A DNA stretch of 60,196 nucleotides from an uncultured Clostridia bacterium (GCA_944391835.1 CALXVA010000002.1:1-60196); one strand, 5' to 3'. Positions 47,116 through 51,166 are shown, counted from the stretch's first letter. Translations and numbers: made by a program. The notes: a model not told the origin generated them from the letters alone.

Positions 47116-47238
47116 CTTGAAAAAAGAATTAACGTTTTGACTAGGCAAACGAGCAAGAAAACCGGAGGCGTACACCTTGTACGTCGAGGATTTTCGAAGT
47201 GAAGTTTAACAACGTCAAAACTTAATTATTTTTTCAAG
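47116..47238. repeat. about 122-bp long-hairpin intergenic repeat, copy A (inverted relative to copy B)
   Basis: CTTGAAAAAAGAATTAACGTTTTGACTAGGCAAAC....GTTTAACAACGTCAAAACTTAATTATTTTTTCAAG. It aligns over its whole length with the reverse complement of 51046..51166. Confidence 0.8.
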
Positions 47239-47243
47239 AACTG

Positions 47244-48362
47244 TTACTCTTTCATTCTGATAGGAAGAATCATATAAATATAATCTCCACCTTCTTCAAC
47301 AGGTCTTATAATACATGGCATAATGCTTGTACCAAAATCAATAAATACTTCTTGGTCATCTATATTTCTTAGTGCATCTAGAAAATATTTTGGATTAAAT
47401 CCTGCTTCTATATTTTTTCCTTCTGTTGTAACATATATTTCTTCTTTAGCATCACCTGTTTGATTTGTACAAGAAATTGTTACTTTTCCTATATCTACAT
47501 TTACTTTAACAGGATATTTTTTCTCTTTTTCTATGCTTGAAGATGAAATTAAACTAATTCTTTCAAAACAATTTTGTATTGTACTTTTATCTACACGTAT
47601 TCTTGTTTCCCAATTTTCTGGAATAACACTAGAATAATTTAAAAATTCACCATCTAATAAACGTGTTACTATTTTACAATTTTCCATTTCAAATAATGCT
47701 TGGTTCTTTGCAACTCCTATTTTTATAATATCATAAGAATCTACAATTATTTTATTAATTTCATTTAATGTTCTTCCAGGAATTACTGCTGAAAAATCAT
47801 TTATTTTGTTTTGTAAAAATTTGCTTTTCCAAGCTAATCTAAATCCATCTACAGCAACTACATTTAATTTATTATTTTTTATTTCAAATAAGCACCCTGT
47901 AAATATTGGCCTATTTTCTTCTGTACTTACTGCAAATATTGTTTTTCTAATCATATCTTTCAATGAATTTTGTTCTAATTCTATAGAATTTTCTATATTT
48001 ATTTGTGGTAATTCTGGAAATTCATTTGGATTCATTGTTGCTAATTTATATAAAGAACCTTCGCATTCTATAACTAATAGATTTTTTTCATCTAAAGTTA
48101 TTTTTATTTCTGCATCTGGCAATCTACGTATAATTTCACTAAACATTATTGCATTTACTACTGTCGCTCCTTGTTCTTTAACTTCACAATTGATTACATA
48201 TTCAATACCAATTTCTAAATCATAAGTTGTAAATTTAACTTCATTATCATTTGTCTGAATTAAAATTCCTTCTAATATAGGCATTGTTGTTTTAGTAGCA
48301 ACAGCTTTTGTTACGGAATTAAGTGCTTTAAGGATATTATCCTTTTCACAAATTATTTTCAT
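47244..48362 (-). CDS. dnaN: DNA polymerase III beta sliding clamp
   Basis: MKIICEKDNILKALNSV.., three-domain length (372 aa), position next to dnaA. Confidence 0.95.
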   Translation of the reverse strand: MKIICEKDNILKALNSVTKAVATKTTMPILEGILIQTNDNEVKFTTYDLEIGIEYVINCEVKEQGATVVNAIMFSEIIRRLPDAEIKITLDEKNLLVIECEGSLYKLATMNPNEFPELPQINIENSIELEQNSLKDMIRKTIFAVSTEENRPIFTGCLFEIKNNKLNVVAVDGFRLAWKSKFLQNKINDFSAVIPGRTLNEINKIIVDSYDIIKIGVAKNQALFEMENCKIVTRLLDGEFLNYSSVIPENWETRIRVDKSTIQNCFERISLISSSSIEKEKKYPVKVNVDIGKVTISCTNQTGDAKEEIYVTTEGKNIEAGFNPKYFLDALRNIDDQEVFIDFGTSIMPCIIRPVEEGGDYIYMILPIRMKE

Positions 48363-48689
48363 TTTGCTCTCTCTCCTTTATAAATAATATAAATATTTTT
48401 AGTAGTAGTAGTAGTAGGCTATGTGGATAATGTGGAAAACTATGTGGAAAGCTTATCTCCCTAACAAATTTAATGTTAATAACTTAGTGGATAATTTGAA
48501 AAGTTATCTACATTTATTTTTTTTTAATGTGAATAACTAAGATATTAACACTTTATTCACATACTTTTCACATATCTATGTGGATAGTCTTTCTAGCCGT
48601 TCCGTAAGTAAAGATTGAATCACTTCTTATCAAACATTTATTTATCAAACGTATTTTTTCAAAAAGTGATTCAAACTCTTTATTCACAA
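48363..48689. other. oriC: oriC (dnaA-dnaN intergenic part) with the DNA-unwinding module
   Basis: DnaA boxes: TGTGGATAA 48422-48430, TGTGGAAAA 48431-48439, TGTGGAAAG 48443-48451, AGTGGATAA 48486-48494, TTATCTACA 48504-48512, TGTGAATAA 48528-48536, TTATTCACA 48553-48561, TGTGGATAG 48579-48587. An AT-rich tract lies at 48370-48399. Confidence 0.85.
48400..48417. promoter_or_regulatory. DnaA-trio element, (TAG)x6
   Basis: TAGTAGTAGTAGTAGTAG, followed by GGC and two abutting DnaA boxes. This is the arrangement described for the Bacillus subtilis origin unwinding system. Confidence 0.7.
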
Positions 48690-50030
48690 TTACTTGCCAT
48701 TTAATAAAATGTTTTTCACACTTTCCACAATCCTTTTTGTACTTACATTGTTTTGAACTTCTTTTTCTATTTTTGAGCATGCGTGTATTACAGTTGTGTG
48801 ATCTCTTTTACCAAATCCAGCTCCTATCTTGGTTAGAGGAAGCTGAGCAACATTTCTACATAAATACATTGCTATTTGTCTTGGAAATGTTACATCATTT
48901 GAGCGTTTCACACCTTTTAATTCTTCTACGGTCACATTAAAATATTTTGACACTGTTTCTTGTATTAACTCTAATGATAATACTTTATCTTTTTTGGTAA
49001 TAACATCATTTATAGATTTTTCTGCCATTTCCATTGTAATTGGAGTATTAGTTAATGATGCATTAGCAATTAGTTTATTTAGAATTCCTTCTAGTTCTCT
49101 TATGTTTGAATCTATTTTTGTTGCTATATCACTTAGAATTTCGTCATCAATTATGATATTATCTAATTGAGCTTTTTTTCTAAGGATTGCTAAACGTGTT
49201 TCATAATCTGGATTTGAAATATCTGCAATTAAGCCCCATTCAAACCTAGATTTTAATCTATCCTCTAAAAGATTTATATCTTTTGGAGGTCTATCACTTG
49301 AAATTATAATTTGTTTTCCATCTTCATGTAATGCGTTAAAAGTATGGAAAAACTCTTCCTGACTTCTATCTTTTCCTGCTATAAATTGAATATCATCAAT
49401 TAATAACACATCTATATTTCTATATCTATTTCTAAACATTTCAGTTTTATTGTCTTTTATAGCATTTATAAGTTGATTAGTAAATTTTTCTGCAGTTACA
49501 TACAAAATATTAGCATTTCTATTATTAAGCAATATTTCATTTGCTATAGCTTGCATTAAGTGCGTTTTTCCTAAACCAACTCCACCATATATAAACAATG
49601 GATTATATGCAGTTGCTGGAGCTTCTGCAACAGAAAGTGCTGCTGCGTGAGCAAACCTGTTACTATTACCAACAACAAAACTATCAAATGTATATCGTGG
49701 ATTTAACGTAGAATTTTGGTAATTTGTTGGATTATTTGATAATTGTTTTGCAGCTTGTAGTTCTTCTTCTCCAACATCATCTTTTAATATTACAGTAATT
49801 TCACAATTTTTATTGGTAATATAATTAAAAGTATTTTTAAATAAATCATGATATCTTGAAAGTATAGATTCTTTTTGAAATGCATTATTGGCAATTAAAA
49901 CAATATTGTTGCTTTCAGCACTTTCAATATCTAAATCTCGTATCCAAGTTTCATAGGCAATTTTTGTAGTTTCATCTTTTAAAAGTTCTTTTGCTTTTGT
50001 TAAAAGTTCATTTAATTCGTCTCTTTGCAT
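48690..50030 (-). CDS. dnaA: chromosomal replication initiator DnaA
   Basis: GGVGLGKTHLMQAI Walker A, LLIDDIQF, C-terminal HTTVIHA DNA-binding helix. Start set at MQRDELNELL (ATG 50030, RBS GGAAGGA). The 26-codon ORF-track extension covers DnaA boxes. Confidence 0.95.
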   Translation of the reverse strand: MQRDELNELLTKAKELLKDETTKIAYETWIRDLDIESAESNNIVLIANNAFQKESILSRYHDLFKNTFNYITNKNCEITVILKDDVGEEELQAAKQLSNNPTNYQNSTLNPRYTFDSFVVGNSNRFAHAAALSVAEAPATAYNPLFIYGGVGLGKTHLMQAIANEILLNNRNANILYVTAEKFTNQLINAIKDNKTEMFRNRYRNIDVLLIDDIQFIAGKDRSQEEFFHTFNALHEDGKQIIISSDRPPKDINLLEDRLKSRFEWGLIADISNPDYETRLAILRKKAQLDNIIIDDEILSDIATKIDSNIRELEGILNKLIANASLTNTPITMEMAEKSINDVITKKDKVLSLELIQETVSKYFNVTVEELKGVKRSNDVTFPRQIAMYLCRNVAQLPLTKIGAGFGKRDHTTVIHACSKIEKEVQNNVSTKRIVESVKNILLNGK

Positions 50031-50086
50031 TGTTTTCAGTCCTTCCAAAATATTATGAGTAAATTTATATATAAAGTGTATAAAAG

Positions 50087-50107
50087 TTATACACATAGTT
50101 ATCCACA
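50087..50107. promoter_or_regulatory. DnaA boxes upstream of dnaA
   Basis: TTATACACA 50087-50095 and perfect TTATCCACA 50099-50107. Confidence 0.65.
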
Positions 50108-50273
50108 ATATTTTTATATAATATCAAATAAATTGCAAGATAGTCAATATAAAAAAATATTTATTTAAAAAATCTGCATTTTGTATTGACTTGCAAGGAA
50201 TTTTAGGATATAATAATAAAGCTTATTATTAGAAAAATCCGGCAACGGTTATATATATTATAGGAGGTGCAAA

Positions 50274-50408
50274 ATGAAAAGAACATATCAGCCAAAAAAA
50301 AGACAACATCAAAAAGAATGTGGATTCATGAAAAGAATGCAAACTAAATCAGGAAGAAATGTATTAAAAGCTAGACGTGCAAAAGGAAGAAAAAAACTAA
50401 GTGCGTAA
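50274..50408 (+). CDS. rpmH: 50S ribosomal protein L34
   Basis: Absent from the ORF track because it is short. [44 protein letters not shown], with RBS AGGAGG. Confidence 0.95.
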
Positions 50409-50458
50409 AATATTAGGTCACTTAAAAGTGATCTTTTTTTGAAATATGAGTGATTTTA

Positions 50459-50806
50459 ATGAGAAAAATAAAAACTTTAAAGAAGAATTATGAATTTAAG
50501 AATGTATTGTCAAAAGGAAAATTTTACATAGGAAAACAAATATCAATTTATGTTTTAAAAAACAACAAAAAAGTTAATGTAATTGGTGTAGCCGTAAGCA
50601 TTAAACAATGTGGTGCGGTTAAAAGAAATAGAATAAAAAGATTAATTAGAGAAAACTACAGGTTGATGAAAGATAATTTAAAACAAGGTTATGATATTGT
50701 TTTTTTATGGAATAAAAAAGGAGAAGTAGATGAGGCTAACTATTATATTATAAAAGACGATATGGAAAAAATATTAAAAAAAGCTGAATTATTTAATATA
50801 AATTAG
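50459..50806 (+). CDS. rnpA: ribonuclease P protein component
   Basis: Position after rpmH; KKNYEFKNVLSKGK.., AVKRNRIKRLIRE (RNR motif). Confidence 0.9.
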   Translation: MRKIKTLKKNYEFKNVLSKGKFYIGKQISIYVLKNNKKVNVIGVAVSIKQCGAVKRNRIKRLIRENYRLMKDNLKQGYDIVFLWNKKGEVDEANYYIIKDDMEKILKKAELFNIN

Positions 50807-50823
50807 TCTTAACGTATTTTATT

Positions 50824-51042
50824 ATGAAAAAATTATTACTTTTCTTATTGAAAATCTATAAAAAATTTATTTCACCAATATTTAAAGCTGTTGGTGTAGA
50901 ATGCAAATATTATCCCACTTGTTCTGAATATATGAGACAAGCAATTGAAAAATATGGTTCTTTAAAAGGAACTTATTTAGGGATAAAAAGACTGTTTAGA
51001 TGTAATCCATTTAGTAAGGGTGGATATGATCCATTAAAATAA
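50824..51042 (+). CDS. yidD: membrane protein insertion efficiency factor YidD
   Basis: YKKFISP....CKYYPTCSEYMRQAIEKYG..KG..LGIKRLFRCNPF..GGYDP. Confidence 0.9.
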   Translation: MKKLLLFLLKIYKKFISPIFKAVGVECKYYPTCSEYMRQAIEKYGSLKGTYLGIKRLFRCNPFSKGGYDPLK

Positions 51043-51045
51043 TTA

Positions 51046-51166
51046 GTTGAAAAATAATTGCGTTTTGGCGTTGTTAAACTTCACGTCGAAAATCCTCAGC
51101 ATACACAAAGTATGCTTCCGGTTTTCTAGCTTGTTTGCCTAGCCAAAACAACAATTCTTTTCCAAC
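51046..51166. repeat. about 121-bp long-hairpin intergenic repeat, copy B
   Basis: GTTGAAAAATAATTGCGTTTTGGCGTTGTTAAACTTCACGTCGAAAATCCTC...CCTAGCCAAAACAACAATTCTTTTCCAAC. It is the reverse complement match of copy A, with compensatory changes in the apical stem. Confidence 0.8.

What the first reader, a model, noticed from the sequence alone, without database searches (positions are those of the whole stretch)
47116..51166. Pair of roughly 120-bp long-hairpin repeats bracketing dnaN-oriC-dnaA-rpmH-rnpA-yidD, with compensatory stem changes and the same sense in both transcripts
Copy A (47116-47238) matches the reverse complement of copy B (51046-51166) over the full length, at roughly four fifths identity by eye. 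Each copy is itself a long imperfect palindrome. The apical stem differs in sequence but keeps its pairing: CGTACA/TGTACG in A versus GCATAC/GTATGC in B. This is covariation, consistent with selection on structure. A lies in a minus-strand operon (dnaN to recF) and B in a plus-strand operon (yidD to yidC). Both mRNAs therefore carry the element in the same sense, which fits an RNA-level role in processing, stability or attenuation. As inverted DNA repeats they could also mediate inversion of the 3.8-kb origin cassette.
Basis: seen in the sequence. Interest (0 to 1): 0.6.

Follow-up and report, generated by a model that had tools for sequence, protein, structure and literature searches.

The report
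Stop-codon-anchored hairpin repeats flanking oriC
The two inverted hairpins around the replication origin are real, but they are two of about 45 copies of a mobile, structure-conserved 130-base hairpin repeat that sits just after stop codons in the direction of its host gene, so the origin location is coincidental.

Summary
Copies A (47112-47245, minus) and B (51038-51171, plus) are 83% complementary over 112 nt, and each folds into a long hairpin.

They are not a special pair. This 1.69-Mb genome holds 45 copies. Forty-one of 45 lie in the sense of the flanking genes, and 33 start within a few bases of the upstream stop codon. Most sit in housekeeping operons (ribosomal proteins, fusA, grpE-dnaK, clpP, rpoB-rpoC). 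A and B are inverted only because genes diverge from oriC.

Covariation is strong: 36 of 47 pairs change on both sides. The same structure and unpaired motifs (GCGTTGT, CGTACA..GTACG, CCTAGC) recur in Treponema, Patescibacteria and Carboxydocellales.

Congeners carry 0-69 copies. Both origin sites are empty in close relatives and in chicken-gut contigs. One clean insertion shows a TA/TAA duplication. In T. vincentii, orientation follows the abutted gene, not the replication fork.

No Rfam family, paper or partner transposase was found. An RNA-level role is untested: wobble pairs are strand-symmetric, and SD-like motifs are avoided on the mRNA strand. No sign of origin inversion was seen.

Earlier agents of this scan reported the same family on another contig of this genome. 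Verdict: a new variant of the REP/ERIC/MITE kind.

The parts
47112..47245 (-). Copy A of the hairpin repeat (stem 47116-47238), in the sense of dnaN-recF. It starts 5 nt after the dnaN stop codon.
   Evidence: model R1 scores 109.8 bits over positions 1-133.
51038..51171 (+). Copy B of the hairpin repeat (stem 51045-51168), in the sense of yidD-yidC. It starts 2 nt after the yidD stop codon.
   Evidence: model R1 scores 114.2 bits over positions 1-133.
47244..48362 (-). dnaN, the gene whose stop codon (47244-47246) copy A follows.
Evidence: ORF list. I did not run a family search on this ORF.
50824..51042 (+). yidD-like 72-aa ORF whose stop codon (51040-51042) copy B follows.
Evidence: ORF list.
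47077..47115 (-). 39-nt tail after copy A. It is absent from the empty allele and may be the remnant of an older, internally deleted copy.
   Evidence: Filled versus empty alignment with G043. A metagenome contig skips 47058-47238.
51169..51200 (+). About 31-nt tail after copy B carrying the Shine-Dalgarno-like AGAGAGGA for yidC. It replaces the 12-nt spacer TTTGGAGGAAAT of empty alleles.
   Evidence: Filled versus empty alignment. RNA and DNA contigs with a joint from 51044 to 51201 and TGGAGGAAAT in between.
51201..52061 (+). yidC-like ORF downstream of copy B.
   Evidence: ORF list.
45841..46905 (-). recF-like ORF downstream of copy A. It is separated from A by a DnaA-box cluster.
   Evidence: ORF list; TTATCCACA repeats at 46925-47076.

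Best explanation
A and B are two members of a large, horizontally spread family of non-autonomous hairpin repeats of about 125-135 nt. Shown: the element occurs 45 times in this genome and 0-69 times in congeners. Insertion sites are polymorphic between close relatives. Copies lie directly 3' of stop codons in the sense of the gene they follow. The rod-like fold with fixed unpaired motifs is kept through compensatory changes, even across phyla. Inferred: a still unidentified enzyme recognises the folded single strand and inserts the unit next to TAA/TAG, possibly with a TA duplication. New copies land next to the stop codon and push older copies downstream, where they decay by internal deletion. 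Also inferred: inside operons only the orientation that keeps SD-like GGAGG/AGGA motifs off the mRNA persists. The unit is read through as part of the operon transcript, where it behaves as a tolerated intercistronic hairpin that may stabilise or process the mRNA. The position on both sides of oriC and the inverted relation of A and B follow from divergent gene direction at the origin. They do not reflect an origin function.
For: Census of 45 copies. 41 of 45 lie in gene sense, and 33 have an edge -15 to +7 nt from the upstream stop codon. Covariation: 81% of cells paired against 66% in shuffles and 33-55% in slid controls, with 36 of 47 pairs changed on both sides. Across phyla: 84% against 55% and 38-42%. 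In the genus, 19 of 24 sampled genomes carry it, at 0-69 copies; in the phylum, 10 of 150. It also occurs in Treponema, Patescibacteria and Carboxydocellales with full-length model matches and the same stop-codon abutment. Site A and site B are empty in G043, whose flanks are 92-97% identical. G011 has a remnant at A, and G023 has a different subfamily at A. Empty alleles appear in chicken-gut contigs. One clean insertion (G047 C31 versus G000 C5) has a TA/TAA duplication and a 33-nt SD-bearing tail. In 6 of 7 same-sense doublets the stop-proximal copy is the more intact one. In T. vincentii, strands are about 50/50 in both replichores, yet 11 of 30 copies abut a same-sense stop codon, 9 of them in lagging orientation. 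SD cores occur in 4 of 40 copies on the mRNA strand and 33 of 40 on the opposite strand.
Against: No partner enzyme was found. DDE_3 occurs in 0 of 38 genomes, and Y1_Tnp, IS110 and DDE_Tnp_1 do not track copy number. No split autonomous form was found in T. vincentii. Termini are conserved only within subfamilies. A target duplication is seen in one event only; sites A and B themselves are not clean insertions. Stop-codon anchoring is hard to explain by DNA sequence alone in a 29% GC genome. Transcription of a filled allele was not observed. Copies in the rRNA spacers of G024 run the other way and fold better in the rRNA sense, so RNA-level selection exists at least there.
Confidence: 0.7

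Rival explanations
1. The hairpin is mainly a host cis-acting RNA element, kept at each locus because it stabilises the upstream cistron, provides an RNase III or RNase Y processing site, or attenuates read-through. This would set expression ratios inside operons.
For: Copies are concentrated in highly expressed operons: S13, L6, L5, L14, L23, L10, S7, EF-G, RimM, GrpE, DnaK, ClpP. Orientation is fixed relative to genes. Structure is kept by compensatory change. The rRNA-spacer copies fold 10 kcal/mol better in the transcribed sense. REP, Efa and Ype repeats also cluster at 3' ends of CDSs and are thought to act on mRNA (PMC1590033).
Against: Some congeners carry none and others up to 69, and close relatives have empty sites at the same essential operons. 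No strand-specific wobble signal appears in mRNA-context copies (92 G.U vs 90 A.C), and the mRNA sense folds worse than the opposite strand in 35 of 42 copies. No terminator-like site is predicted. No transcript data exist.
Confidence: 0.3
2. It is a classical DDE-transposon MITE of the TA/YTAR-targeting kind (IS630/Tc1 or IS5 family), mobilised in trans by a transposase that binds subfamily-specific terminal inverted repeats. The stop-codon bias would arise because TAA/TAG are the tolerated TA sites.
For: One clean event fits a TA or TAA duplication. Many copies are bounded by TAG/TAA and CTA/TTA. Abutted stop codons are TAA 20, TAG 13, TGA 0 against a background of 0.69/0.22/0.08. Abutted stops in T. 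vincentii are mostly TAG. Termini are conserved within subfamilies and in Treponema.
Against: DDE_3 is not found in any of 38 congeners, and DDE_Tnp_1 only in 8, none of them copy-rich. The most conserved parts are internal unpaired motifs, not the termini. The whole length covaries, not only the ends. TAA is far too common in intergenic DNA of a 29% GC genome for sequence alone to give about 85% stop-codon anchoring.
Confidence: 0.2
3. It is a REPIN-like element mobilised as a single-stranded DNA hairpin by a RAYT or IS200-type Y1 (HUH) transposase.
For: A hairpin with conserved asymmetric loops suits recognition of a folded single strand. Y1_Tnp proteins of about 270 aa are common in the genus. 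There are no conserved termini across subfamilies.
Against: Y1_Tnp is present in zero-copy genomes (G009, G022) and not found in copy-rich ones (G017, G006). No copy flanks the Y1 genes of this genome. There is no replication-strand bias in T. vincentii. The conserved motifs are not an inverted REP doublet.
Confidence: 0.1
4. The pair has an origin-specific role: an inversion switch for the 3.8-kb dnaN-oriC-dnaA-rpmH-rnpA-yidD cassette, or a structural boundary of oriC.
For: The copies are inverted repeats bracketing the origin genes.
Against: They are 2 of 45 copies. Either or both are missing in most congeners, whose origins otherwise have the same gene order. G047, which has both copies, is collinear. 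No inverted joint appears in four metagenome runs. Identity is only 83% with short perfect stretches, a poor substrate for homologous recombination.
Confidence: 0.02

Closest known systems
REP/BIME and REPIN elements of proteobacteria (with RAYT transposases)
   Same: They are multi-copy extragenic palindromes that cluster at 3' ends of genes inside operons. They fold as hairpins, vary in copy number between relatives, and are thought to protect or process mRNA (PMC1590033).
   Different: REPs are 20-40 nt and REPINs are symmetric doublets. This element is one 130-nt rod with asymmetric conserved loops and is anchored on stop codons in one orientation. Y1 genes do not track it, and it spans several phyla.
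ERIC, Ype (YPAL) and Efa (EFAR) repeats: 120-170-nt palindromic repeats of enterobacteria and Enterococcus
   Same: [quoted passage not shown]
   Different: No sequence relation was tested because no reference sequence was at hand. Those families are genus-restricted and, from my own recollection (not checked here), occur in both orientations. This one has a strict orientation rule and a cross-phylum conserved structure.
Correia, RUP and other bacterial MITEs
   Same: They are small non-autonomous repeats with inverted ends, TA-type target duplication and subfamilies. Nested insertions and clusters occur (PMC10969869).
   Different: In this element the internal loops are more conserved than the termini. 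No matching IS was found. One subfamily carries an SD-bearing 3' tail.
Integron attC sites
   Same: They are imperfect hairpins of 60-140 nt directly after ORFs and in the ORF's orientation. They are recognised as folded single strands, with structure conserved more than sequence.
   Different: attC conserves the base of the stem (RYYYAAC / GTTRRRY) and varies in the middle; here it is the reverse. The flanking genes are core housekeeping genes, not cassettes. No integrase link was tested.

Membership tests
MITE (miniature inverted-repeat transposable element) | Small (under about 300 bp), non-coding and multi-copy | tested here: met
   About 125-135 nt; 45 copies in G000.
MITE (miniature inverted-repeat transposable element) | Terminal inverted repeats conserved among copies | tested here: inconclusive
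   The ends pair in every copy, but their sequence is conserved only within subfamilies and within Treponema.
MITE (miniature inverted-repeat transposable element) | Target-site duplication | tested here: inconclusive
   One clean event fits TA/TAA. Sites A and B and other loci are not clean.
MITE (miniature inverted-repeat transposable element) | Presence/absence polymorphism between relatives | tested here: met
MITE (miniature inverted-repeat transposable element) | A related autonomous IS with the same ends | tested here: not met
   DDE_3 is absent in 38 genomes. IS110, Y1 and DDE_Tnp_1 are not correlated. The only split copy is an unrelated IS insertion. MAGs may lack assembled IS copies.
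REP/REPIN-RAYT system | A single-copy RAYT (Y1) gene co-occurring with, and flanked by, the repeats | tested here: not met
   Y1 is present in zero-copy genomes and not found in copy-rich ones. No copy lies next to the G000 Y1 genes.
REP/REPIN-RAYT system | Unit is a short REP or a symmetric doublet of two inverted REPs | tested here: not met
   The conserved motifs GCGTTGT and CCTAGC face each other but are not complementary.
Integron attC | Core sites RYYYAAC and GTTRRRY at the base of the hairpin | tested here: not met
   Reading of the alignments: the base of the stem is variable and lacks these motifs.
Integron attC | Arrays of cassettes next to an intI integrase | not tested
   The flanking genes are housekeeping genes. 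No intI search was run.
Intrinsic (Rho-independent) terminator | GC-rich stem directly followed by a U tract | tested here: not met
   No terminator-like site at A or B. The U-rich stretch is paired with the A-rich 5' arm.
Any Rfam 15 family | Match to a curated covariance model | tested here: not met
   No match at E <= 1 on the window region, nor on Treponema, Patescibacteria or Carboxydocellales loci. Only TD-1 and TD-2 were found next to the copies.

The most novel reading that the evidence does not exclude
The family is a mobile intercistronic module found across phyla. It is a structure-defined element, recognised as a folded single strand by a still unknown kind of mobilising machinery, that homes to the position just after a stop codon. 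At least one subfamily brings its own Shine-Dalgarno tail for the next gene. It would thereby rewire the spacing, processing and coupling of cistrons in the most highly expressed operons. The reversed, better-folding copies in rRNA spacers would then be exapted processing stems.
Probability: 0.2. Interest if true: 0.8.

Novelty: new variant of a known kind. Interest (0 to 1): 0.5.

Why it matters
For the window itself: the origin region is ordinary, and the flanking hairpins should not be read as origin features or as an inversion switch. For the family: small palindromic repeats are known, but three properties together are unusual. The element sits on stop codons in one orientation. It fills the ribosomal-protein, fusA, rpoBC and chaperone operons of small-genome gut Clostridia. 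It keeps the same fold and the same unpaired motifs in Treponema, Patescibacteria and other Bacillota. This points to an unrecognised structure-specific mobilisation route, and it gives a natural system for testing how large hairpins placed right behind a terminating ribosome affect operon expression. T. vincentii OMZ 806 is a named isolate with a complete genome and at least 43 copies, so if it can be grown the question is open to experiment.

Tried and rejected
1. Rfam scans of the window region and of distant loci: no family for the element.
2. Two literature searches found no description.
3. Replication-direction explanation of orientation. It cannot be tested in G000, where skew is about 0.2 and only 7% of co-directional junctions are lagging. 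It is rejected by T. vincentii.
4. Strand test by wobble pairs: balanced in G000, so it gives no support for mRNA-sense RNA selection. The MFE asymmetry is therefore not interpreted.
5. Partner transposases IS630 (DDE_3), IS200/RAYT (Y1_Tnp), IS110 and IS4/IS5 (DDE_Tnp_1): none tracks copy number.
6. Autonomous form in T. vincentii: the arms 2.1 kb apart proved to be a copy interrupted by an IS with its own ends. The solo 5' arms are mosaic forms with extra small hairpins.
7. RNA evidence: the metatranscriptome contigs laid on the region come from strains with empty alleles, so nothing can be said about transcription of the hairpin. Parts without cover are not interpreted.
8. Phage and plasmid carriers: no match.
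9. Comparison of orthologous copy B between G000 and G001 failed because the MAFFT alignment was not structure-aware. Only the G011 comparison is usable: one compensatory pair, one broken pair, and 3 of 39 unpaired changes.
10. The palindrome at 43.44-43.58 kb and the weak hit at 1637-1757 are not members.
11. One family scan failed on a mis-specified locus and was re-run.
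Full report
**Observation.** The two stretches are as described. The repeat finder reports arms 47122-47233 and 51050-51161, 112 nt long and 83% complementary. Each copy folds into one long imperfect hairpin, with z-scores from -4.6 to -6.4 against shuffles. Copy A starts 5 nt after the stop codon of the minus-strand ORF 47244-48362 (dnaN by position). 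Copy B starts 2 nt after the stop codon of the plus-strand ORF 50824-51042 (yidD by position). The apical stems differ by one compensatory G-C to A-T pair.

**It is a family, not a pair.** BLAST and iterated nhmmer on the whole 1.69-Mb, 29% GC assembly find 45 copies, each called on one strand only. Forty-one of the 45 lie between co-directional genes in the sense of those genes (binomial p = 9e-9). In 33 copies the element edge is -15 to +7 nt from the stop codon of the upstream gene, mostly -4 to +3. The window holds only A and B. The model scores them at 110-114 bits in gene sense and 25-27 bits on the other strand.

The abutted genes are mostly highly expressed housekeeping genes. They include ribosomal proteins S13, L6, L5, L14, L23, L10 and S7, plus EF-G, RimM, the KH protein of the rpsP operon, YlxM, GrpE, DnaK, ClpP, Era, NrdD, PorD, hydrogenase subunits, AccB and FabG. 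The spacer between a 1245-aa and a 1196-aa ORF, rpoB-rpoC by size only, holds two opposed copies. Because genes diverge from oriC, a copy after dnaN and a copy after yidD are necessarily inverted relative to each other.

**Structure.** On 40 full copies, a 47-pair consensus derived from per-copy base-pair probabilities has 81% of cells paired. Column shuffles give 66% and structures slid by 1-3 columns give 33-55%. Thirty-six pairs show changes on both sides. Unpaired or sequence-fixed motifs stay constant between covarying helices: GCGTTGT in the 5' arm, TC plus CGTACA-N4-GTACG at the apex, and CCTAGC in the 3' arm.

**Distribution.** Model R1 finds the element in 19 of 24 sampled congeners, at 0 to 69 copies, and in 10 of 150 genomes sampled across the phylum. 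A core-motif scan of the species-level genome collection hit three kinds of record:
- gut 'uncultured Clostridium/Clostridia' MAGs and Clostridium sp. CAG:508;
- several Treponema records, including the complete T. vincentii OMZ 806 genome;
- Patescibacteria/Saccharibacteria MAGs and a Carboxydocellales MAG.

R1 matches these end to end at 44-55% GC. Covariation across them is stronger still: 84% paired against 55% shuffled and 38-42% slid. The same motifs are conserved. No Rfam model matches the element; only TD-1 and TD-2 lie beside copies in T. vincentii. Two literature searches found no description. Phage and plasmid collections gave nothing.

**Mobility.**
- Site B is filled in G000, G047, G011, G001 and G046. 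It is empty (TAA-TTTGGAGGAAAT-ATG) in more than 20 congeners, including G043, whose flanks are 92-94% identical.
- Site A is filled in nine congeners. It is empty in G043, holds an internally deleted remnant in G011, and holds a different subfamily in G023.
- Contigs from chicken-gut runs carry the empty alleles at both sites.
- Mapping the copies of G047 and G043 back on G000 gave one clean recent event. The empty allele reads GGGGG-TA-AAAATG and the filled allele reads GGGGG-TA-[unit]-TA-AAAATG. The unit there is the hairpin plus a 33-nt tail that carries AGGAAAGGAA and ends at the start codon. The same tail follows copies at several other loci.
- In 6 of 7 same-sense doublets the stop-proximal copy is the more intact one, and many 3' flanks hold 3'-arm remnants. 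This suggests repeated insertion next to the stop codon, followed by decay of the displaced copy.
- Abutted stop codons are TAA 20, TAG 13 and TGA 0, against a background of 0.69/0.22/0.08 (TAG enrichment p = 0.02).

**What sets the orientation.** In G000, replication and transcription are confounded: GC skew is about 0.2 and only 7% of co-directional junctions are lagging. In the single-contig congener G024, 16 copies lie in leading-strand operons in sense. One weak copy in a lagging-strand operon is also in gene sense. In T. vincentii, with dnaA at coordinate 1, the 43 copies split about evenly between strands in both replichores. Even so, 11 of 30 examined copies abut a same-sense stop codon, 9 of them in lagging orientation. 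Orientation therefore follows the gene, not the fork.

A simple selective reason is visible. SD-like cores (GGAG/GAGG/AGGA) occur in 4 of 40 copies on the mRNA strand and in 33 of 40 on the opposite strand. This is an inference, not a test.

**RNA or DNA.** At consensus pairs, G.U (92) and A.C (90) cells are equal in G000. In the distant phyla A.C (66) exceeds G.U (39). The mRNA-context copies therefore show selection for pairing but no mRNA-strand signature. No terminator-like site is predicted. By contrast, the three copies in each 16S-tRNA-23S spacer of G024 run opposite to the model sense and fold about 10 kcal/mol better in the rRNA sense. This is unexplained.

**Partner enzyme.** DDE_3 (IS630) was found in none of 38 congeners. 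Y1_Tnp, IS110 and DDE_Tnp_1 do not track copy number. In T. vincentii a copy with arms 2.1 kb apart is interrupted at its apex by an IS with a DUF772 + DDE_Tnp_1_6 transposase and its own ends. Other copies are mosaics with extra small hairpins. MAGs often lack assembled IS copies, so absence is weak evidence.

**Comparison and verdict.** The element works like the REP/ERIC/Efa/Correia class of small palindromic repeats that gather at the 3' ends of genes (PMC1590033; PMC10969869). It fails the defining tests for REPIN-RAYT, attC, an intrinsic terminator and any Rfam family. It meets only part of the MITE definition.

Earlier agents of this scan reported the same family on another contig of this genome (e1-1097865, e1-1097866), and my independent census agrees with them.
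- the origin-site polymorphism;
- the cross-phylum structure;
- the replication-versus-gene test;
- the SD asymmetry;
- the symmetric wobble count;
- the rRNA-spacer copies;
- the SD-bearing tail;
- the negative transposase profiles.

For the finding as posed, the pair is an ordinary consequence of a repeat family. There is no evidence for an origin role or for inversion.

Noticed in passing
G024:C1:1128650-1129351 and 162473-163127 (loci L097-L104): Each 16S-tRNA-23S spacer of the two rRNA operons holds three full-length copies. They are oriented opposite to the rule in protein operons and fold about 10 kcal/mol better in the rRNA sense. They may be exapted processing stems.
   Followed up: partly
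window 43440-43580: A separate long hairpin (-44 kcal/mol, z = -8.5) lies about 70 nt downstream of the gyrB stop codon. Model R1 scores it at only 17.9 bits, so it belongs to a different palindromic family.
   Followed up: partly
window 46925-47076, 48420-48590 and 50084-50111: Three clusters of TTATCCACA-type DnaA boxes. One lies in the dnaN-recF spacer next to copy A, where no yaaA-like ORF is present.
   Followed up: no
window 1637-1757 (minus): A weak model hit (26 bits, E = 0.007) lies directly after the stop codon of a 206-aa ORF. It folds as three small hairpins, not a rod, and may be a degenerate relative.
   Followed up: partly
L333 (T. vincentii 1,120,500-1,125,500) and L334-L341: A copy is interrupted at its apex by an IS encoding DUF772 + DDE_Tnp_1_6. 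Other copies enclose arrays of small perfect GC-rich hairpins. Rfam TD-2 and TD-1 motifs lie directly beside copies in L214.
   Followed up: partly
G000:C26:6535-6835: The spacer between a 1245-aa and a 1196-aa ORF (rpoB-rpoC by size only, not identified by a family search) holds two opposed copies. The stop-proximal one is in the reverse orientation and carries a 50-nt insertion near its apex.
   Followed up: no
G000 versus G047, loci L375-L404: G047 is 100% identical to G000 around the origin but only 88-95% identical at several other loci. This suggests a mosaic of recombined segments between close lineages.
   Followed up: no
G000:C13:3900 and C13:9752; C87:4715: In three copies the upstream ORF runs 11-15 nt into the element and uses a stop codon inside it (two of them in the conserved ATAA). 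The element therefore supplies the last codons of the protein.
   Followed up: no
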